Sequence record: NC_054925.1
DNA from: Escherichia phage vB_EcoM_NBG2
Length of the DNA: 64,000 bases
Reading direction: 5' to 3' (one strand)
Positions 11,332 to 59,737 of this stretch are shown here, piece by piece; position 1 is the first letter of the stretch, and each line of letters starts with the position of its first letter. Made by a program: the position numbers and the translations under genes. The notes beneath the pieces are model-generated. The model was not told the origin of the DNA. It saw nothing but the letters and a program-made list of their open reading frames with translations, and did no database searches.

Positions 11332-11934
11332 TTATAGATTAAATCCTTCAAAATCAAGAGTATAGATAGTATATGTTGAATACTTTTTATACTCATATCT
11401 ATCTGCAATTCTAAATACACTTCCAGCTGGTATCATTACTTCTTGTTCATCTGAAACTAATTCCATATTACGATAACGATGACTATCCGGAAACTTAAAG
11501 TTTGGATTGTATTCTTTACAACGTAAAGCTTTTATAGCATACTCCTGGAAATTAAACACCATAGGAGCTTTGAATTCAAAAATAACTTGTGTATTGTATT
11601 CTAATCCAGAAGCAAAATGTAGAGCTATATTTTTATCATATGAAGCTGATACGACTTTATCAAATGTAATAATATCAATTCCTTGATTTAATACTTGTTT
11701 AGTCTCAGCTGGAACACCTCTCCAAAGAGGTTTATCGTTTGGAACCAAACGAGATTTGATTATTTCATTTAACCAAGAATGATCGTCTGGTTTATTAGTA
11801 ATACAATGAATTAAAAGTTCAATTTCAGATAAATTAAACCCTTCAGAAAGTAATTCTTCACGAATAGAAGCACGCACCGATGCATCCATTGATTTTATTT
11901 TAAAATCTTTTAGTTGCATTATTGAGTATTTCAT
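11332..11934 (-). CDS. modA: ADP-ribosyltransferase ModA
   Basis: 200 aa; R (WRGV), S-x-S (VVSASYD) and E-x-E (EQEVMIP) ART motif triad. Confidence 0.7.
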   Translation of the reverse strand: MKYSIMQLKDFKIKSMDASVRASIREELLSEGFNLSEIELLIHCITNKPDDHSWLNEIIKSRLVPNDKPLWRGVPAETKQVLNQGIDIITFDKVVSASYDKNIALHFASGLEYNTQVIFEFKAPMVFNFQEYAIKALRCKEYNPNFKFPDSHRYRNMELVSDEQEVMIPAGSVFRIADRYEYKKYSTYTIYTLDFEGFNL

Positions 11935-12554
11935 TCAACTACCTCAATATCATAAACTTTAAATGTTCCAAATGAATCGTGTAATTTTTCTTTTGAAATA
12001 GAAGTTATTCTATACTTTCCAATTGGAATCATCCATTCTTGTTCACGCACAATCATCATTAAGTTATCAGTACGCTCTGAATCTAGCCCATCAGTATCTT
12101 CATACGTGTACTTAAACTCAGTATTAGGAGAAGAAAGTATAATATCGCTGATATGGTCAGAATAATTAAAAGCTTTATCAGTTTTTAAGCGAAATATTAT
12201 TTCAGTGAAATACTCAACATAAGAAAAACCACATGCTGTGTGCAAACTAGTAGTAAATGAATCTACCCTGTTCGTTGAAAACACTTCTCCAACTTGTAAA
12301 TCTTTAATAAGTTCTTCTGTTGATTTTGATATACCACGATATAACTGATAAGGTGATTTAGTTAAATGCTTTTTAATGATTTTATTCAACTGCCGATGAA
12401 GAGCTTCATTCTTTTTGGCTTCCATACATTGCCAAAGAATTGACTGCTCAAAGTCAGTAAATTTTTCACAGACTTTTTTATACATATCATATTGAAAATC
12501 AACGCTTTCAGCTTTTATAGATAACTGTTCAACATCTGCAAGATTAATAATCAT
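11931..12554 (-). CDS. modB: ADP-ribosyltransferase ModB
   Basis: 207 aa; R (LYRGI), STS-like (FSTNRVDSFTTS), EQEWMIP; 4-nt overlap with modA. Confidence 0.7.
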   Translation of the reverse strand: MIINLADVEQLSIKAESVDFQYDMYKKVCEKFTDFEQSILWQCMEAKKNEALHRQLNKIIKKHLTKSPYQLYRGISKSTEELIKDLQVGEVFSTNRVDSFTTSLHTACGFSYVEYFTEIIFRLKTDKAFNYSDHISDIILSSPNTEFKYTYEDTDGLDSERTDNLMMIVREQEWMIPIGKYRITSISKEKLHDSFGTFKVYDIEVVE

Positions 12555-17396: not shown

Positions 17397-17753
17397 TTAA
17401 CCTCTATTCATAAAAGCATTAAAAATTTGGTCATCAATAGATGGTGCAGTAATATTTTCTGCATCATTTAGCAAATCATTAATTTCATCAGATAGCATAA
17501 CACATGTACCTTTATTTCCTGTAATTGTTACTGCGCAATTACGAACGTTTTCTTTATTAAATTTTAGGTTAATATTTTCGTAATGAAAATCCTTTAATGC
17601 TGAATATATTTTTAAAATAAAATTGTCTTTTACTACAATAAACCCAACCTCACTATTAAAACGTGGTTCATGGAAACTGTAATAAACCTTTTCATCTATA
17701 AAATCGTATGAAATTTTTTCCATTTTTAAATATGAAAATTCAGAACTATACAT
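17397..17753 (-). CDS. hypothetical protein
   Basis: 118 aa ORF. Confidence 0.5.
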   Translation of the reverse strand: MYSSEFSYLKMEKISYDFIDEKVYYSFHEPRFNSEVGFIVVKDNFILKIYSALKDFHYENINLKFNKENVRNCAVTITGNKGTCVMLSDEINDLLNDAENITAPSIDDQIFNAFMNRG

Positions 17754-17765
17754 ACTAACCTCTAA

Positions 17766-18059
17766 TTACTCACCTACCACTTCAGCGATGATATTTTTGT
17801 TATTAAAGTTTTTATCGCAATACAGAACATAATTATACTGCATTACACCACCAGACTTAAGCTGTTTTTGCACTTCGGCTTTCATTTCAGGACGATCGCG
17901 CTCAACGATATTCATAATATCTGCTTCAATTTGAGTTTCAACCTCAGTCTGATCAGCAGTCATAGACCATTCGCACAAATCTTTATCATAACCTGCCATA
18001 GCAGGCTGAGCAGCACAAGAAGATAAAGCAAAAATTGTAGCAAAGATAAATTTTTTCAT
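17766..18059 (-). CDS. sp: periplasmic protein, Spackle-like
   Basis: 97 aa; cleavable signal peptide (…AAQPAMA); size and position as T4 sp. Confidence 0.6.
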   Translation of the reverse strand: MKKFIFATIFALSSCAAQPAMAGYDKDLCEWSMTADQTEVETQIEADIMNIVERDRPEMKAEVQKQLKSGGVMQYNYVLYCDKNFNNKNIIAEVVGE

Positions 18060-55134: not shown

Positions 55135-55347
55135 TCATTTTTGTCCTGTATTTACTTTATGCCGATGCACGGCCTTAACTTTATCAAGGTATTTTTCAAA
55201 ATTTCGCAATCTAGTATAGTCTGCCGGAGATTGGTTGAGTGATACTTCTCGACGCAAAGCTGAAATGATATTTCCAACTTCCCTACGAATTTCATCTAAT
55301 TGAAGCACAGTAAGATTGCGAAGTTGCTTTTCAGTTAATTGTAGCAT
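55135..55347 (-). CDS. hypothetical protein
   Basis: 70 aa; TATAAATA-like late promoter upstream. Confidence 0.45.
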
Positions 55348-55372
55348 ATATACCCCTTTAGTTAGATAAACC

Positions 55373-55380
55373 TATTTATA
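55373..55380 (-). promoter_or_regulatory. late promoter TATAAATA upstream of rI-region genes
   Basis: exact TATAAATA on minus strand. Confidence 0.4.
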
Positions 55381-55389
55381 ACTTTTGCA

Positions 55390-55971
55390 CTAACCGAGCT
55401 TTTTAGTTAATTCATTCCAATGTTTTCTACACAAAGAAACATAAATTTCATCACCAATACAGATTTGATTACCTTCTTTAACTGGTGTTCCATCTTCCGT
55501 TAATCGAGCTGTCATAATCGCTTTTTTACCGCAATGACAAACCGCCTTTAGTTCAATAAGTTTATCTGCAATCGCTAAAAGTTCTTTAGAACCTTCAAAC
55601 AATTTTCCAGCGAAATCAGTCCTTAATCCATAAGCCATAACAGGAACATTATATGTATCAACAATTCGACTTAATTGATGCACCTGTTCAGTTTTTAAAA
55701 ACTGAGCTTCATCTACAAATACGCAATGAATATCTTTTTGTGCTTCAGCCCATTTATAGAACTCGAAAATATCCATATCATCTGTAATAATATTTGCTTC
55801 CTGCCTAATTCCAATGCGAGAAACGACTTCACAGACAGAATCGCGAGTATCAATAGCAGGCTTAAGAACTAATACACTCATTCCACGTTCTTTATAATTA
55901 TGTGCAGCAGTCAAAAGAGAAGCAGATTTTCCAGCATTCATTGCTGCATAAGTAAAAATTAAACTCGCCAT
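55390..55971 (-). CDS. tk: thymidine kinase
   Basis: 193 aa; P-loop AAMNAGKS; C-terminal Zn-binding Cys pairs. Confidence 0.85.
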   Translation of the reverse strand: MASLIFTYAAMNAGKSASLLTAAHNYKERGMSVLVLKPAIDTRDSVCEVVSRIGIRQEANIITDDMDIFEFYKWAEAQKDIHCVFVDEAQFLKTEQVHQLSRIVDTYNVPVMAYGLRTDFAGKLFEGSKELLAIADKLIELKAVCHCGKKAIMTARLTEDGTPVKEGNQICIGDEIYVSLCRKHWNELTKKLG

Positions 55972-55980
55972 ATCACCTTC

Positions 55981-56166
55981 TTAAAGCGTATTCACATAAG
56001 CTATTAATTCATTTTCTTTCTTATCAAACCGATCAGCAAATTCTTCCTGCTGTTCGGGAGATAACGGGCCGTATTCATCATAAAAGGTGTTTGCTTCTGT
56101 ATGCTCATCTAGAAGTTCATGGATAAGCTCAAATAATTTATCTTTTTGTTCTTTACTCAGACTCAT
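55981..56166 (-). CDS. hypothetical acidic protein
   Basis: 61 aa ORF. Confidence 0.45.
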   Translation of the reverse strand: MSLSKEQKDKLFELIHELLDEHTEANTFYDEYGPLSPEQQEEFADRFDKKENELIAYVNTL

Positions 56167-56336
56167 ATATTAATTTCCAAAAGTTTTAAAATAATTCGCT
56201 TTTGCTTAAATATTTCCACAGTTAAATGATCAGTATCTTTTTGACCGATTCCAATGGCAAAACCTTTATTAACAGCGAGTTCAATTAAATTATCAAGCTC
56301 ACGTAACACTTCGTATTGTAACTCAGAACTATTCAT
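56163..56336 (-). CDS. small hypothetical ORF (57 aa)
   Basis: hand-translated; ATGA overlaps at both ends; coordinates anchored to flanking track ORFs. Confidence 0.35.
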   Translation of the reverse strand: MNSSELQYEVLRELDNLIELAVNKGFAIGIGQKDTDHLTVEIFKQKRIILKLLEINI

Positions 56337-56539
56337 TTCGGTTTACCTTCTTTAACGAAATCTGAATAAGGATAAAATCCCGAATAAAATCCTTCACCTT
56401 TATGATTGATGCATCCTTTATTAGAACAATAGCACCAATAATCGAAATCACAAACCATTTCATCGTTGCATAAAGCAAAAACAACCGGCCACTTACACTT
56501 TTCACAATGGGCATTTTTAAGAATACTAGTTTGGCTCAT
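56333..56539 (-). CDS. Cys-rich small protein
   Basis: Trimmed to M8 (ATGA overlap with upstream stop); many Cys (CEKC, CNDEMVCDFDYWCYC). Confidence 0.4.
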   Translation of the reverse strand: MSQTSILKNAHCEKCKWPVVFALCNDEMVCDFDYWCYCSNKGCINHKGEGFYSGFYPYSDFVKEGKPK

Positions 56540-56763
56540 AACCATGTCACCTTCAAGCAATATTCTTCTACGTGCTGTTTGCGACCTTTCTTATCAATAA
56601 AGGTATATTCAACGAATGTTCCAATGTAGTCTTTATCTACATCATGTAGGCTATTAATTGGGCATTTAGTACGGCAAATGCGTTCCCATTGACGAATAAT
56701 TACTGCCTTATTCTTTGGGTCATATGGATGTGGATAATGTATATTCATAATAACGGTTCCCAA
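56536..56763 (-). CDS. hypothetical protein
   Basis: 75 aa ORF (TTG start in track). Confidence 0.4.
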   Translation of the reverse strand: MGTVIMNIHYPHPYDPKNKAVIIRQWERICRTKCPINSLHDVDKDYIGTFVEYTFIDKKGRKQHVEEYCLKVTWL

Positions 56764-57212
56764 TCAACAATCACAATTTCTAATTTAGAGGAATATGTAT
56801 CTAAAATCCCCTCAATAATATCCCAGTTCCCTTTACCTATGCCTGCACCAATCCTAGGCATATAGATTGTAGGTTTAATCAGTTTATTTTCACCAAACTC
56901 ATTTAATTCTAACATACAATTCATTAAAGCGGAATACTCAAAATTTGGCCCTGGTTGAAATTGAGTATAAAGATTAAAGCAGTAAGCTTTATGAGTCCTA
57001 AAGTATTTTTCATAAACTGAGTAAGAACCAAGTTTAGTTACATCACCCCATTCAGTCTGTAATTTATCAGCTTCCAAAATTTTAGGGAAAGCTTTAGTTA
57101 ATTGACCCGCTACGCCTGAACCCATAGTATGAAAACAATTGCATCCATGCGCAATATTTTTACCTTCAGCGAAAAGGGCGACAATATCGCCCTTGATATA
57201 TTTTACAATCAT
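56745..57212 (-). CDS. macro-domain protein (ADP-ribose binding/processing)
   Basis: 155 aa; N-terminal IKGDIV...AHGCNCFHTMGSGVAGQL resembles macro-domain glycine-rich site. Confidence 0.55.
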   Translation of the reverse strand: MIVKYIKGDIVALFAEGKNIAHGCNCFHTMGSGVAGQLTKAFPKILEADKLQTEWGDVTKLGSYSVYEKYFRTHKAYCFNLYTQFQPGPNFEYSALMNCMLELNEFGENKLIKPTIYMPRIGAGIGKGNWDIIEGILDTYSSKLEIVIVDWEPLL

Positions 57213-57550
57213 CTAGTACTCAATCCTCGATTATAAGAATCTACCAAACGGTCAACCATTGAATGACAAGCGGCTTTATCTTTCTCCTCCGCAACTGAAC
57301 ATTCTAAGGTATTCCACTTTTTAGCATATCGTTTTAATAATGTATCGTTTTTGTATCTGCTTGATTTATCTCTTTCTCCGTCTTTATATGCATATATTAA
57401 TTTCTGTGCAAATTCAGCTTGGCATGCTTTATTTTTCCCACAATAATCTGCCGCAGTGCGGTTTACATATTCTCTAATTTCAGTATATGATGTATCTGCT
57501 GACGCAGAAAATGAAATTAATCCTATACATAAAACCAAAATTTTAGTCAT
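57209..57550 (-). CDS. secreted hypothetical protein
   Basis: 113 aa; signal peptide MTKILVLCIGLISFSASA. Confidence 0.5.
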   Translation of the reverse strand: MTKILVLCIGLISFSASADTSYTEIREYVNRTAADYCGKNKACQAEFAQKLIYAYKDGERDKSSRYKNDTLLKRYAKKWNTLECSVAEEKDKAACHSMVDRLVDSYNRGLSTR

Positions 57551-58088
57551 TTACTATTTCCAAAAGTTTATTATTTTTAAGGTAATTAGCCTTTTCTAGG
57601 ACTTCAGAAGCATATTTAGAACCTGCTTTAACATTCCATCCCGAATTATAAGAGGATATTGCTTTTCTTATATCGCCCTTATGTATATTTAACCAATAAG
57701 AAAGTTCAATGTACGCCCAGGAAGCTGAATTGGACCGTTTATTCAACATTCTTTTTATTTCAGCATCGGTCATATTATAACCAAGTTCCTTAACTCTTGC
57801 TCGCATAGTAGGCAAATAATTTTGGAACATTCCATAAGCGTGATGCTTTGGTTTAGATTTTAAATTAACTCCGCCAGAGCTTTCTTGCCATAAAATAGCA
57901 GCCATTATATGACCTAATCCGCTCTTGTGGATATTTTTGTGTGTTTTATATTTTCCATCCTTAGAAAATTGTTCCCCGAATTGATACGCGTAACGCATGT
58001 TATCGAGTTGGACATTACTGAAAGTATGCTCGGAGCTATGTGCCATCATTGAAATGGCCAATAGACCAGCGAGTAGTGCTTTTCTCAT
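57543..58088 (-). CDS. SLT-domain lytic transglycosylase-like protein, secreted
   Basis: 181 aa; signal peptide; QESSGG...AYGMFQ resembles the ES-GLMQ motif. Confidence 0.55.
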   Translation of the reverse strand: MRKALLAGLLAISMMAHSSEHTFSNVQLDNMRYAYQFGEQFSKDGKYKTHKNIHKSGLGHIMAAILWQESSGGVNLKSKPKHHAYGMFQNYLPTMRARVKELGYNMTDAEIKRMLNKRSNSASWAYIELSYWLNIHKGDIRKAISSYNSGWNVKAGSKYASEVLEKANYLKNNKLLEIVND

Positions 58089-58095
58089 GCTTACC

Positions 58096-58557
58096 TCATT
58101 GAGTTTTAATTACTGCTTTAGAAGCCTTTCCTGGTAAACGACGACTATTGATAATTGCCATCCTGCATTGAAGCGACGGGTCTTTGAACTTCGCATTAGG
58201 TTTACAAACTGTAAATCCAAGCCAAAGATTTCCATCTGTGATTTCTAAACGTCCAGGACGGTATTCAACCCCATCAATAAAATCCTCATCAATGTCAGGA
58301 CGCGGAGGCATACTCAGGAATTCATTAACTTCTAAAACATGGTCTTTTATTTTGTGGAATAATTCAAAAACATATGTCTCATCAATCTCCCGTTGAATTG
58401 CACGATCAAGAAGATGCTGAGAATATTTTAGATGAAACGATGAGACCCCTGCTGCTTTTGATGCCTCACGAATCTCATTGTTAATTTGACGAAACTCCGA
58501 CTCAAAATGACGACGAAGCTTATTTCGACGGATAAAAACTTCTGTATTGATAGTCAT
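58096..58557 (-). CDS. regB: endoribonuclease RegB
   Basis: 153 aa; size and position as T4 RegB; early promoter upstream. Confidence 0.75.
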   Translation of the reverse strand: MTINTEVFIRRNKLRRHFESEFRQINNEIREASKAAGVSSFHLKYSQHLLDRAIQREIDETYVFELFHKIKDHVLEVNEFLSMPPRPDIDEDFIDGVEYRPGRLEITDGNLWLGFTVCKPNAKFKDPSLQCRMAIINSRRLPGKASKAVIKTQ

Positions 58558-58584
58558 GTTGTTCTCCTCTTAACTGATAGAAAA

Positions 58585-58614
58585 ATTATACCACAGTCAA
58601 GAGGAAAAGTAAAC
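58585..58614 (-). promoter_or_regulatory. early promoter upstream of regB
   Basis: GTTTAC, 18 nt, TGGTATAAT. Confidence 0.55.
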
Positions 58615-58616
58615 AG

Positions 58617-58895
58617 TTATTCTTTAAATCTAATCAATTTATTCATAGACTTTGAAACTTCTGCACGAACCTCATGTAGATTTTTGAGCTGTTCAAGACG
58701 CTGCGTATAGTAAGCAATTTCATCTTCTTCGAGACAGTCCTGTGAATCTTCTTTAAGATACCGTGCATAGTCCTGGAAAGCGTTACGGACTACTTCCTGG
58801 AAGTCATCAAGACTTTGAATTTTCTTAGGAGCAGCAGACACACGACGAGGGGCAGTATAATACTCATAACCAAACCCTGCGCTTAATTGAGCCAT
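58617..58895 (-). CDS. hypothetical protein
   Basis: Trimmed to M15 (TAATG coupling); 92 aa. Confidence 0.45.
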
Positions 58896-59161
58896 TAGTA
58901 TTTTTCCTCTGGTTGGAACACAGCACGACAAGCCCACATACTGGCTTCTTTGAGTTTCGTTTTAGCAATAGCTAACTGATCGAGGCTTTCAGCATAATTC
59001 TTCGCGAGTTCAAAGTCTTCGCAATTATCTAGTGCTTCCCAGAATTCATCATATAAAGCATCAAAGATAAGTCCTAAACGAACTTCAGCGTCTTTAATAG
59101 CATTTACTTTACCGATTTTTTCGTCGGTATGTGGCTTATAACCTTTAATATCTTCAATCAT
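58895..59161 (-). CDS. hypothetical protein
   Basis: Trimmed to M13; 88 aa. Confidence 0.4.
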
Positions 59162-59375
59162 ATTTGACTTCCTCACCAGTACATAAATCGTATTCAACTA
59201 AACGAATAGGTTCATGAATGCCATATCCTTGAACAGAAATTTCTGTCGTAGGATAAATTCCATTAATATCACCCATGTTCCATGCTTCGTTAAATTGCTG
59301 TTCGCCTGAATTACTAAACCACTCGGCGAAAGCATTTAGCACATCTTCAGAACCTTCAATAATTATCTTTGCCAT
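59154..59375 (-). CDS. hypothetical acidic protein
   Basis: 73 aa ORF. Confidence 0.45.
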   Translation of the reverse strand: MAKIIIEGSEDVLNAFAEWFSNSGEQQFNEAWNMGDINGIYPTTEISVQGYGIHEPIRLVEYDLCTGEEVKYD

Positions 59376-59737
59376 TACAAACTCTCGGTGAAGGTACGAG
59401 CGATAACGTCGCGCTGCTGTTCCGGAGTCAGAGAGTTAAAGCGAACTGCATAACCGGATACACGGATGGTCAGCTGCGGATATTTTTCCGGATGCTTAAC
59501 TGCATCTTCCAGAGTTTCACGACGCAGAACGTTAACGTTCAGGTGTTGACCACCTTCAATTTTAACTGTAGGCTGTTGCTCAATTTCAATTTCACGGGCA
59601 TGCAAACCATAGAAAATTTCTGGGTCTACAAAAGAGTCCTCTTTAAAGGTTTTAGAGACAATAATTCGTGCTTGAATACCATCTTCAAAATAAATAGTAC
59701 CTTTATGTGTGCCTTCAAGAATTTGATATGCTTTCAT
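59375..59737 (-). CDS. autonomous glycyl-radical cofactor (GrcA/YfiD-like)
   Basis: 120 aa; C-terminal [28 protein letters not shown] glycyl-radical motif; coding DNA visibly more GC-rich than neighbours. Confidence 0.7.

What the first reader, a model, noticed from the sequence alone, without database searches (positions are those of the whole stretch)
56745..57212. Macro-domain protein in the tk-downstream cluster
The N-terminal glycine-rich segment IKGDIV...NIAHGCNCFHTMGSGVAGQL resembles ADP-ribose-binding macro domains. Macro domains can reverse ADP-ribosylation or degrade ADP-ribose-derived signals, so this is a candidate counter-defence or host-takeover factor alongside ModA/ModB.
Basis: partly seen in the sequence, partly recalled or inferred. 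Interest (0 to 1): 0.45.

Follow-up and report, generated by a model that had tools for sequence, protein, structure and literature searches.

The report
T4 Tk.4/AdfM anti-DarT macrodomain gene

Summary
The ORF at 56745..57212 (minus strand, 155 aa) is real. Its protein is 100% identical to phage T4 Tk.4, and all 7 DNA differences from T4 are synonymous.

It is a macro domain:
- Pfam Macro scores above the curated cut-off.
- The AlphaFold2 model has pLDDT 95.7.

RefSeq T4 already annotates it as "phosphatase; A1pp motif". A 2025 bioRxiv preprint (HIDEN-SEQ) found tk.4 to be the only T4 gene needed on a DarTG2 host. A clean knockout sensitised T4, and the authors named the gene adfM. So the macro-domain and counter-defence reading is supported, and the finding is already known.

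What I add:
- The protein is not a captured DarG. It lacks DarG's C-terminal domain and scores 30 bits against a 250-bit cut-off.
- An invariant Gln84 sits where DarG Lys80 and TARG1 Lys84 do catalysis.
- The Asn25/Gln84/Gly124 trio matches SCO6735, a Gln-type macrodomain shown to cleave thymidine-linked ADP-ribose from DNA.
- Unlike SCO6735, Tk.4 has the short DarG-length loop.

Hydrolysis by Tk.4 itself has not been shown anywhere I could find. ModA and ModB lie in the window but 45 kb away.

The parts
56745..57212 (-). tk.4 / adfM coding sequence, 155 aa plus stop; 17.5 kDa, pI 5.9. The whole protein is one macro domain.
   Evidence: ORF. 100% protein identity to T4 NP_049723. 461/468 nt identical to T4, and all 7 differences are third-position synonymous. 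Pfam Macro residues 22-132. AF2 model with strands 2-8, 20-25, 64-70, 75-84, 115-118, 145-151 and helices 10-15, 33-41, 43-52, 93-108, 130-140.
57108..57149 (-). Loop 1 (phosphate/ribose-binding), residues 22-35, HGCNCFHTMGSGVA. It contains Asn25, which aligns with DarG N22, SCO6735 N27 and PhiKZ AdfM N23.
   Evidence: Translation check. Residue mapping. N25 is present in 118/119 word-index hits and 139/139 sequences of the representative set, which includes Tk.4 itself. Mutating the equivalent Asn reduces activity in DarG (PMC5179494), SCO6735 (PMC9411070) and PhiKZ gp104 (PMC13309987).
56961..56975 (-). End of strand beta-4, residues 80-84, NLYTQ. Gln84 (56961-56963) occupies the position of the catalytic Lys of DarG (K80) and TARG1 (K84), and of Gln85 of SCO6735.
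   Evidence: Alignments. Q84 is invariant in 119/119 and 139/139 sequences. DarG K80A is inactive. SCO6735 Q85A is inactive.
56823..56858 (-). Loop 2 (diphosphate-binding), residues 119-130, PRIGAGIGKGNW. G122, G124 and G126 align with DarG G117, G119 and G121. G124 aligns with SCO6735 G128. G126 sits where TARG1 has Asp125.
   Evidence: P119, I121, G122 and G124 are invariant in the 66-sequence alignment. The larger sets keep G122 and G124 in every sequence and P119 and I121 in nearly all. DarG G119E and SCO6735 G128E reduce activity.
57066..57068 (-). Asp49, a family-specific near-invariant residue in helix 43-52. DarG, SCO6735 and BT_1257 have Tyr here. Its role is unknown.
   Evidence: 118/119 and 139/139 sequences. 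Alignment.
57209..57212 (-). ATGA overlap of the vs stop codon with the tk.4 start codon, which suggests translational coupling.
   Evidence: ORF coordinates: vs 57209..57550, tk.4 56745..57212. Sequence.
57224..57228 (-). GAGGA Shine-Dalgarno-like element, 11 nt upstream of the tk.4 ATG.
   Evidence: The minus-strand upstream sequence reads TATAATCGAGGATTGAGTACTAG followed by ATG.
56745..56763 (-). 19-nt overlap of the tk.4 3' end with the longest tk.3 ORF (56536..56763). T4's annotated tk.3 matches 56539-56748, an ATGA-type 4-nt overlap.
58585..58613 (-). Best sigma-70-like promoter match upstream of regB (TTTACT-17-TATAAT with TG). It is a possible early promoter for the regB-vs.1-vs-tk.4 run. 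Inference only.
   Evidence: The number of promoter-like sites in the region is not above the shuffled expectation (15 found, 16 expected), so this is weak evidence.

Best explanation
The gene is tk.4 (adfM) of a T4-type Tequatrovirus. It encodes a stand-alone, single-domain macro protein of the ALC1/TARG1-like class.

Proposed mechanism. The gene sits in the early-gene region and is probably co-transcribed and translationally coupled with regB-vs.1-vs. The protein acts as an 'orphan antitoxin' against the host DarTG2 defence. DarT2 attaches ADP-ribose to thymidine in single-stranded phage DNA and so blocks replication. Tk.4 binds the ADP-ribose in the cleft formed by loop 1 (HGCNC...MGSG) and loop 2 (PRIGAG). 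It then hydrolyses the ribose-thymine bond, releasing ADP-ribose and restoring the DNA.

Likely chemistry. It is probably not the lysine-nucleophile chemistry of DarG/TARG1, because position 84 is an invariant Gln. The Asn25/Gln84/Gly124 constellation matches SCO6735. There, Gln85 (held by Asn27) positions the distal ribose and a backbone-activated water is proposed to do the chemistry.

Status of each step:
- Shown here: ORF, identity to T4 Tk.4, macro fold, class, active-site residue mapping, absence of a DarT-binding domain, family-wide conservation.
- Shown by others on the identical protein: the tk.4 knockout makes T4 sensitive to DarTG2.
- Inferred: the enzymatic removal of dT-ADP-ribose, the Gln-dependent mechanism, and the timing of expression.
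For: - Identity: 155/155 aa to T4 Tk.4. Neighbouring genes are 95-100% identical to T4 rI, tk, tk.3, vs, vs.1 and regB.
- The only hit in both curated defence/annotation libraries is the N-terminal macro part of DarG. PADLOC gives E 1.3e-9 over profile positions 2-145/329. NCBIfam gives positions 2-146/338.
- 7 of 11 ADP-ribose-contacting residues of T. aquaticus DarG are identical in Tk.4: N25, V34, Q37, T83, G122, G124, G126.
- N25, Q84 and G124 equal SCO6735 N27, Q85 and G128, each needed for dT-ADPr hydrolysis by SCO6735. SCO6735 rescues E. coli from DarT and is faster than DarG.
- Q84 is invariant in 119/119 and 139/139 sequences. N25 and G124 are invariant or nearly so (N25 118/119, 139/139).
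- Purifying selection: 7 synonymous and 0 non-synonymous differences from T4.
- Genetics in T4: tk.4 was the single significant hit on DarTG2 and a clean knockout is sensitised. T4 lacking adfA and adfN was already known to stay DarTG2-resistant, which predicted another factor.
- Precedents: the DarG macrodomain alone suffices as antitoxin. The PhiKZ macro protein gp104 removes DarT2-made ADP-ribose from DNA in vitro.
Against: - No biochemical assay of Tk.4 on ADP-ribosylated DNA was found in the held literature. The genetic result is in a preprint and was obtained under special conditions (M9 glucose, 30 C).
- The catalytic Lys of DarG/TARG1 is absent: Q84. TARG1 Asp125 aligns with G126.
- The two DNA-contacting lysines of SCO6735 (K34, K89) align with S32 and G88. 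The long 'mobile loop' said to characterise the SCO6735 subclass is absent, at 9 residues against 14-15.
- The protein is mildly acidic (pI 5.9), which is not what one expects for a strong ssDNA binder.
- The family is roughly equidistant from BT_1257, TARG1, Poa1p, SCO6735 and DarG. Homology alone therefore does not fix the substrate.
Confidence: 0.75

Rival explanations
1. Tk.4 is an ADP-ribose-1''-phosphate phosphatase or O-acetyl-ADP-ribose deacetylase. This is the historical 'A1pp phosphatase' annotation. It would process small ADP-ribose metabolites rather than modified DNA.
Against: These names come from domain-level transfer, not from assays. This reading does not explain why tk.4 is specifically required on a DarTG2 host. 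The active-site trio matches a proven dT-ADPr DNA hydrolase.
Confidence: 0.07
2. Tk.4 mainly reverses ADP-ribosylation of protein or RNA. Candidates are Glu/Asp-linked protein ADP-ribose, uracil-linked ADP-ribose on RNA, and marks made by T4's own Alt/ModA/ModB or by other host ART defences. The DarTG2 phenotype would then be one facet of a broader eraser.
For: TARG1 and SCO6735 act on Glu/Asp-ADP-ribosylated proteins as well as on DNA. TARG1, DarG and SCO6735 also remove uracil-linked ADP-ribose from RNA. modA and modB are in the same genome.
Against: Alt, ModA and ModB make arginine-linked ADP-ribose (for ModA and Alt targets). From my own knowledge, ALC1-like macrodomains are not known to cleave that linkage. 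T-even phages remain sensitive to the mRNA ADP-ribosyltransferase CmdTAC although they carry tk.4 (abstract of PMC11618068). tk.4 is dispensable on plain E. coli K-12 and was flagged only on DarTG2.
Confidence: 0.1
3. Tk.4 neutralises DarTG2 without catalysis, either by binding DarT2 (as AdfA/AdfB-type inhibitors do) or by binding ADP-ribose or ADP-ribosylated DNA.
For: The canonical catalytic Lys is missing. Full-length DarG also inhibits DarT by protein-protein contact. Other anti-DarT factors, AdfA and AdfB, are reported to act by interaction with the toxin.
Against: DarG's toxin-binding region is its C-terminal half, and Tk.4 lacks it. DarG-macro K80A alone does not inhibit DarT. The near-total conservation of N25, Q84 and G124 over >250 diverse relatives argues for an enzyme active site. 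Gln at this position supports full activity in SCO6735.
Confidence: 0.05
4. Tk.4 degrades or sequesters ADP-ribose-derived immune signals, such as Thoeris gcADPR or His-ADPR.
Against: Similarity to ThsA macro is far weaker than to the DNA/protein ADP-ribosylhydrolase class. I found no genetic or biochemical evidence for this. The published phenotype is DarTG2-specific.
Confidence: 0.03

Closest known systems
Phage T4 Tk.4 = AdfM (NP_049723; bioRxiv 10.1101/2025.11.20.689424)
   Same: Identical protein (155/155) in the same gene order, regB-vs.1-vs-tk.4-tk.3...tk. The published anti-DarTG2 phenotype therefore applies directly.
   Different: Only 7 synonymous nucleotide differences. The small ORFs between tk.4 and tk differ from T4: T4 tk.1 has no match, tk.2 is 54% identical, and there are two extra ORFs.
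PhiKZ gp104 'AdfM' (Cell Rep 2026, PMC13309987)
   Same: A stand-alone phage macrodomain that counters DarTG2. The conserved Asn (N23 there, N25 here) is present in both.
   Different: A different lineage. gp104 keeps the DarG FPTK lysine and matches DarG at E 1e-24 to 3e-19. Tk.4 has YTQ and matches DarG only at E 5e-4 to 6e-3 as a single sequence. gp104 is imported into a phage nucleus, and T4 has none. In vitro hydrolysis has been shown for gp104 but not for Tk.4.
DarG (DarG2) antitoxin macrodomain, e.g. T. aquaticus 5M31/5M3E and M. tuberculosis 5M3I
   Different: No C-terminal DarT-binding domain. No adjacent darT. Catalytic K80 is replaced by Q84, and W83 by P87. The score is far below the family cut-off, 30 bits against 250.
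SCO6735 (5E3B) / BT_1257 (2FG1, 2AFC): Gln-type ALC1-like macrodomains
   Different: Only 29% identity to BT_1257. The loop after the Gln is 5-6 residues shorter, at 9 against 14-15. Lysines K34 and K89 are absent. Tk.4 has its own near-invariant residues C26, D49 and Y82. The genes examined lie on phage contigs, not bacterial chromosomes.
Human TARG1 / C6orf130
   Different: The Lys84/Asp125 catalytic dyad is absent: Q84 and G126.
T4 AdfN (gp30.3, NADAR family)
   Same: A functional analogue in the same phage: an orphan antitoxin-like enzyme that removes ADP-ribose from phage DNA.
   Different: An unrelated fold (NADAR). It is specific for guanosine-linked ADP-ribose made by DarT1 and has no effect on DarTG2. 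It is encoded elsewhere in the genome, outside this window.

Membership tests
Macro domain superfamily (Pfam PF01661) | Profile score above Pfam's gathering threshold | tested here: met
   27.7 bits against a cut-off of 22, E 2.9e-6, residues 22-132.
Macro domain superfamily (Pfam PF01661) | Three-layer alpha/beta/alpha fold with a six-stranded mixed sheet | tested here: met
Macro domain superfamily (Pfam PF01661) | Binds ADP-ribose in the cleft between loop 1 and loop 2 | not testable with these tools
   Only residue conservation could be checked. 7 of 11 DarG contact residues are identical. No ligand docking or model coordinates were available.
ALC1/TARG1-like macrodomain class | Closest structural and sequence neighbours are class members (TARG1, DarG, SCO6735/BT_1257, Poa1p) | tested here: met
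T4 Tk.4 / AdfM | Orthology: sequence identity and conserved gene neighbourhood | tested here: met
   155/155 identity. The flanking genes vs, vs.1, regB, tk.3 and tk are 98-100% identical.
T4 Tk.4 / AdfM | Required for phage growth on a DarTG2-expressing host | not testable with these tools
   Reported for the identical T4 protein in bioRxiv 10.1101/2025.11.20.689424. Not an in-silico test.
DarG antitoxin (NCBIfam NF048014 / PADLOC DarG) | Full-length match above the curated cut-off | tested here: not met
   30.3 bits against a cut-off of 250. Only profile positions 2-146 of 338 are matched. PADLOC matches positions 2-145 of 329.
DarG antitoxin (NCBIfam NF048014 / PADLOC DarG) | C-terminal DarT-interacting domain | tested here: not met
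   The protein ends at residue 155, immediately after the macro fold.
DarG antitoxin (NCBIfam NF048014 / PADLOC DarG) | Catalytic lysine (K80 in T. aquaticus and M. tuberculosis DarG) | tested here: not met
   K80 aligns with Q84, which is invariant in the family.
DarG antitoxin (NCBIfam NF048014 / PADLOC DarG) | Encoded next to a darT toxin gene | tested here: not met
   The neighbours are vs and tk.3. The contigs of three relatives are phage-like and no DarT family was listed.
SCO6735 / BT_1257 subclass | Gln at the catalytic position, held by a conserved Asn, plus a conserved loop-2 Gly | tested here: met
   Q85, N27 and G128 align with Q84, N25 and G124. The functional importance of these residues in SCO6735 comes from PMC9411070.
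SCO6735 / BT_1257 subclass | Mobile loop five residues longer than in DarG/TARG1, which the authors call characteristic of the subclass | tested here: not met
   The segment from the Gln to the next conserved position is 9 residues in Tk.4. It is 14 in SCO6735, 15 in BT_1257 and 9 in DarG and TARG1.
SCO6735 / BT_1257 subclass | DNA-positioning lysines K34 and K89 | tested here: not met
   They align with S32 (Ala, Ser or Gly in the family) and G88.
TARG1 | Lys84/Asp125 catalytic dyad | tested here: not met
   K84 aligns with Q84 and D125 with G126.
Poa1p-type ADP-ribose-1''-phosphate phosphatase | Appr-1''-p phosphatase activity | not testable with these tools

The most novel reading that the evidence does not exclude
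The Tk.4/AdfM family may be a separate subclass of ALC1-like macrodomains, found on phage-like contigs in all three cases checked. It combines a Gln-type (lysine-free) active site with a short DarG-length loop and its own near-invariant residues (Cys26, Asp49, Tyr82). On this reading it uses a catalytic arrangement not yet described, perhaps with Asp49 as a general base. It could also have a wider substrate range than DarG, for example uracil-linked ADP-ribose on RNA or Glu/Asp-linked protein ADP-ribose as well as thymidine-linked DNA ADP-ribose.
Probability: 0.2. Interest if true: 0.45.

Novelty: already known. Interest (0 to 1): 0.15.

Why it matters
DNA ADP-ribosylation by DarT toxins is a widespread anti-phage defence. 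T-even phages appear to carry a matched pair of erasers: AdfN (NADAR) for guanosine-linked marks and Tk.4/AdfM (macro) for thymidine-linked marks. This instance adds no new biology, because the protein is identical to T4's.

The useful residue of this analysis is mechanistic. T4 AdfM is not a DarG copy. It has Gln where DarG and TARG1 use their catalytic Lys, as does the proven DNA de-ADP-ribosylase SCO6735. That gives precise mutants to test (N25A, Q84A/K, D49A, G124E). It also argues that phages acquired anti-DarT2 macrodomains at least twice, in the T4 lineage and the PhiKZ lineage.

Tried and rejected
- Promoter/terminator scan of 55300-59500. The number of sigma-70-like sites (15) equals the shuffled expectation (16 +/- 3.9), so it gives no real evidence on transcription. 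Only the site upstream of regB is a good match. The terminator-like hairpin at 57174-57194 is on the + strand, antisense to tk.4, and within chance.
- 'Captured DarG' hypothesis. Rejected: 30 bits against 250, no C-terminal domain, no Lys80, and PhiKZ gp104 is far closer to DarG than Tk.4 is.
- Full membership of the SCO6735 subclass. Rejected because the long mobile loop and K34/K89 are missing.
- Clues from domain fusions. Of 10 longer relatives, 8 show only the Macro domain in Pfam (3 of them below its cut-off) and one shows no family at all. One is a macro-NUDIX fusion.
- Bacterial context or DarT adjacency for relatives labelled as bacterial MAG proteins. Both contigs turned out to be T4-like phage contigs.
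- Placing Asp49 relative to the active site. Model coordinates are not exposed to the scripting tool, so this stays open.
- Literature search for a biochemical assay of Tk.4. None found. One search failed because of term-length limits.

Full report
**1. The observation**

The window contains an ATG-initiated ORF of 155 codons at 56745..57212 on the minus strand. The start codon overlaps the stop codon of the upstream gene in an ATGA arrangement. A GAGGA element lies 11 nt upstream.

**2. Identity of the gene**

The DNA is 98.7-99.6% identical to many Tequatrovirus genomes (T2, VEc20, PhiZZ6 and others). There the gene is tk.4 and is labelled variously 'hypothetical protein', 'phosphatase' or 'macro domain protein'. 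In RefSeq T4 (NC_000866) tk.4 is annotated 'phosphatase; Tk.4; contains A1pp phosphatase motif'.

The window protein is 155/155 identical to T4 Tk.4. The two genes differ at 7 of 468 nucleotides, and all 7 are third-position synonymous changes.

The neighbourhood is that of T4. On the minus strand the order is:
- regB (58096-58557)
- vs.1 (57543-58088)
- vs (57209-57550)
- tk.4
- tk.3 (56536-56763)
- three further small ORFs
- tk (55390-55971)

The flanking T4 genes match at 98-100% identity. The gene is therefore transcribed before tk, not after it. modA (11335-11934) and modB (11934-12554) are in the window but about 45 kb away.

**3. Is it a macro domain?**

Yes, on four lines of evidence:
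- Pfam Macro (PF01661) scores 27.7 bits against a gathering score of 22.
- A profile of 66 homologues hits the PDB sequences of BT_1257 (5e-18), TARG1 (2e-15), Poa1p (5e-14), SCO6735 (5e-14) and DarG macrodomains (1.5e-13 and 6e-11).
- An AlphaFold2 model built on that alignment is very confident (pLDDT 95.7, pTM 0.91). It shows six strands and five helices.

The protein belongs to the ALC1/TARG1-like class.

**4. What is already known about its function**

bioRxiv 10.1101/2025.11.20.689424 describes HIDEN-SEQ, a transposon screen of T4. It reports tk.4 as the single significant hit on an E. coli host expressing DarTG2. A clean tk.4 knockout sensitises T4 to DarTG2, and the authors rename the gene adfM, for anti-DarT factor Macrodomain. 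They infer, but do not show, enzymatic removal of ADP-ribose from DNA.

This fits an earlier prediction. T4 lacking adfA and adfN remained fully DarTG2-resistant, so another factor was expected (PMC11825919).

Independently, the PhiKZ macrodomain protein gp104, also named AdfM, was shown to remove DarT2-made ADP-ribose from DNA in vitro and to rescue cells from DarT2 (PMC13309987).

I found no paper that assays T4 Tk.4 biochemically.

**5. What the sequence adds**

The only hit in NCBIfam and in PADLOC is DarG. It covers just the N-terminal macro part, profile positions 2-146 of 338, and scores 30 bits against a cut-off of 250. Tk.4 has no DarT-binding C-terminal domain and no adjacent toxin gene.

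I aligned the family with DarG, TARG1, SCO6735, BT_1257 and PhiKZ gp104:
- **ADP-ribose contacts.** 7 of the 11 ADP-ribose-contacting residues of T. aquaticus DarG (listed in PMC5179494) are identical in Tk.4.
- **Catalytic position.** DarG K80 and TARG1 K84 align with Gln84, and TARG1 D125 aligns with Gly126.
- **Conservation.** Gln84 is invariant in 119/119 homologues from the word-indexed search. It is also invariant in 139/139 sequences of the exhaustive-search set, which is 138 representatives at 50% identity plus Tk.4 itself. Asn25 and Gly124 are invariant or nearly so.
- **PhiKZ gp104.** It keeps the DarG 'FPTK' lysine and matches DarG at E 1e-24. The two proteins named AdfM therefore belong to different lineages of the class.

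**6. Why a Gln is compatible with the proposed activity**

SCO6735 and BT_1257 also carry Gln at this position. PMC9411070 reports the following for SCO6735:
- It rescues E. coli from DarT.
- It removes thymidine-linked but not guanosine-linked ADP-ribose from DNA, faster than DarG or TARG1.
- It loses activity on Q85A, N27S and G128E.
- The authors propose a water-mediated mechanism in which Gln85, held by Asn27, positions the distal ribose.

Tk.4 has all three equivalents: Asn25, Gln84 and Gly124.

Tk.4 is not a full member of that subclass, however:
- Its loop after the Gln is 9 residues, as in DarG and TARG1. SCO6735 has 14 and BT_1257 has 15.
- The DNA-contacting lysines K34 and K89 align with Ser32 and Gly88.
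- The family has its own near-invariant residues, Cys26, Asp49 and Tyr82. DarG, SCO6735 and BT_1257 have Tyr at the Asp49 position.

The role of these residues is unexplained. I could not inspect the model coordinates.

**7. Distribution**

The family is large. 1,182 clusters at 50% identity match the profile at E <= 1e-30.

I examined three contigs of relatives. Two of them are labelled as bacterial MAGs, and both are T4-like phage contigs (Rnl1, Dda-like helicase, PNKP, spanin, dCMP deaminase, DNA ligase). The third looks phage-like. No DarT gene was listed on any of them. One relative is fused to a NUDIX domain and lies near NAD-salvage genes. BFVD contains many other phage macrodomain proteins with the same fold.

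**8. Best explanation and rivals**

The best-supported model is a stand-alone ADP-ribosyl-DNA hydrolase. It erases DarT2-made thymidine ADP-ribosylation from replicating phage DNA, probably by a lysine-independent, SCO6735-like mechanism. My confidence is about 0.75.

The fold, class, residue mapping and identity to T4 Tk.4 are shown here. The DarTG2 phenotype was shown by others, in a preprint. The chemistry is inferred.

Rivals:
- A small-molecule ADP-ribose-1''-phosphate phosphatase or deacetylase. This is the old annotation and is based on domain transfer only.
- A broader protein/RNA ADP-ribose eraser. This is possible as an added activity, because TARG1, DarG and SCO6735 also act on uracil-ADPr RNA. 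Against it, T-even phages remain sensitive to the RNA ADP-ribosyltransferase CmdTAC.
- Non-catalytic inhibition. This is disfavoured by active-site invariance and by the lack of DarG's toxin-binding half.
- Degradation of an immune signal. No evidence supports it.

**9. Verdict**

The macro/A1pp annotation of T4 tk.4 is long-standing, and its counter-defence role against DarTG2 was reported in 2025 for a protein identical to this one.

Interest is therefore low. The only modestly new point is the Gln-type active site, with a lineage distinct from DarG and PhiKZ AdfM. That point sharpens the experiments still needed to establish the mechanism.

Noticed in passing
window 55981-56763 (minus strand): The cassette of small ORFs between tk and tk.4 differs from T4. 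T4 tk.1 has no tblastn match and T4 tk.2 is only 54% identical (55984-56166). Two ORFs have no match to the T4 tk-region proteins I queried: 56163-56336 (57 aa) and 56333-56560 (75 aa, Cys-rich with CxxC-like motifs). The flanking tk, tk.3 and tk.4 are 98-100% identical, so this is a hypervariable islet.
   Followed up: partly
window 17400-17816 (minus strand): The T4 gp61.2 homologue in this window is only 31% identical to T4's over residues 74-208, against 95-100% for most other genes compared. The allele is strongly diverged.
   Followed up: no
window 57066-57068 (Asp49), 56967-56969 (Tyr82), 57135-57137 (Cys26): Three residues are invariant or nearly so across >250 Tk.4-family sequences but are not shared with DarG, SCO6735, BT_1257 or TARG1. 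Those proteins have Tyr at the Asp49 position. Their role in catalysis or substrate choice is unknown.
   Followed up: partly
related proteins P0012, BFVD K4I435 and A0A2H4YG67, PHROG 15329: Truncated tk.4 fragments (92-104 aa, up to 97% identical) occur in some T4-like phages. They even have their own PHROG, which suggests the gene is split or decayed in some lineages. Such phages might be DarTG2-sensitive.
   Followed up: no
L005 2468-3211 and 5643-7922: One Tk.4-family relative (P0211) is a macro-NUDIX fusion. Its phage-like contig also encodes a nicotinate phosphoribosyltransferase and a CTP_transf_like (NMNAT-type) enzyme. This puts an ADP-ribose eraser next to NAD-salvage genes.
   Followed up: partly
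window 59375-59737 (minus strand): A 120-aa ORF ends in ...[29 protein letters not shown]. From memory, this looks like the glycyl-radical motif of pyruvate formate-lyase/GrcA-type proteins. I did not test it.
   Followed up: no
window 57209-57550 (vs) next to tk.4: The HIDEN-SEQ preprint reports the adjacent vs gene (valyl-tRNA synthetase modifier) as the T4 gene most strongly depleted in minimal medium. vs and tk.4 overlap by ATGA and may be translationally coupled.
   Followed up: no
L003 and L004 (contigs labelled Bacilli bacterium and Culicoidibacterales MAGs): Both contigs deposited as bacterial MAGs carry T4-like phage genes (Rnl1, Dda-like helicase, PNKP, spanin, dCMP deaminase, DNA ligase, SLT). 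They are probably phage contigs binned into bacterial genomes.
   Followed up: partly
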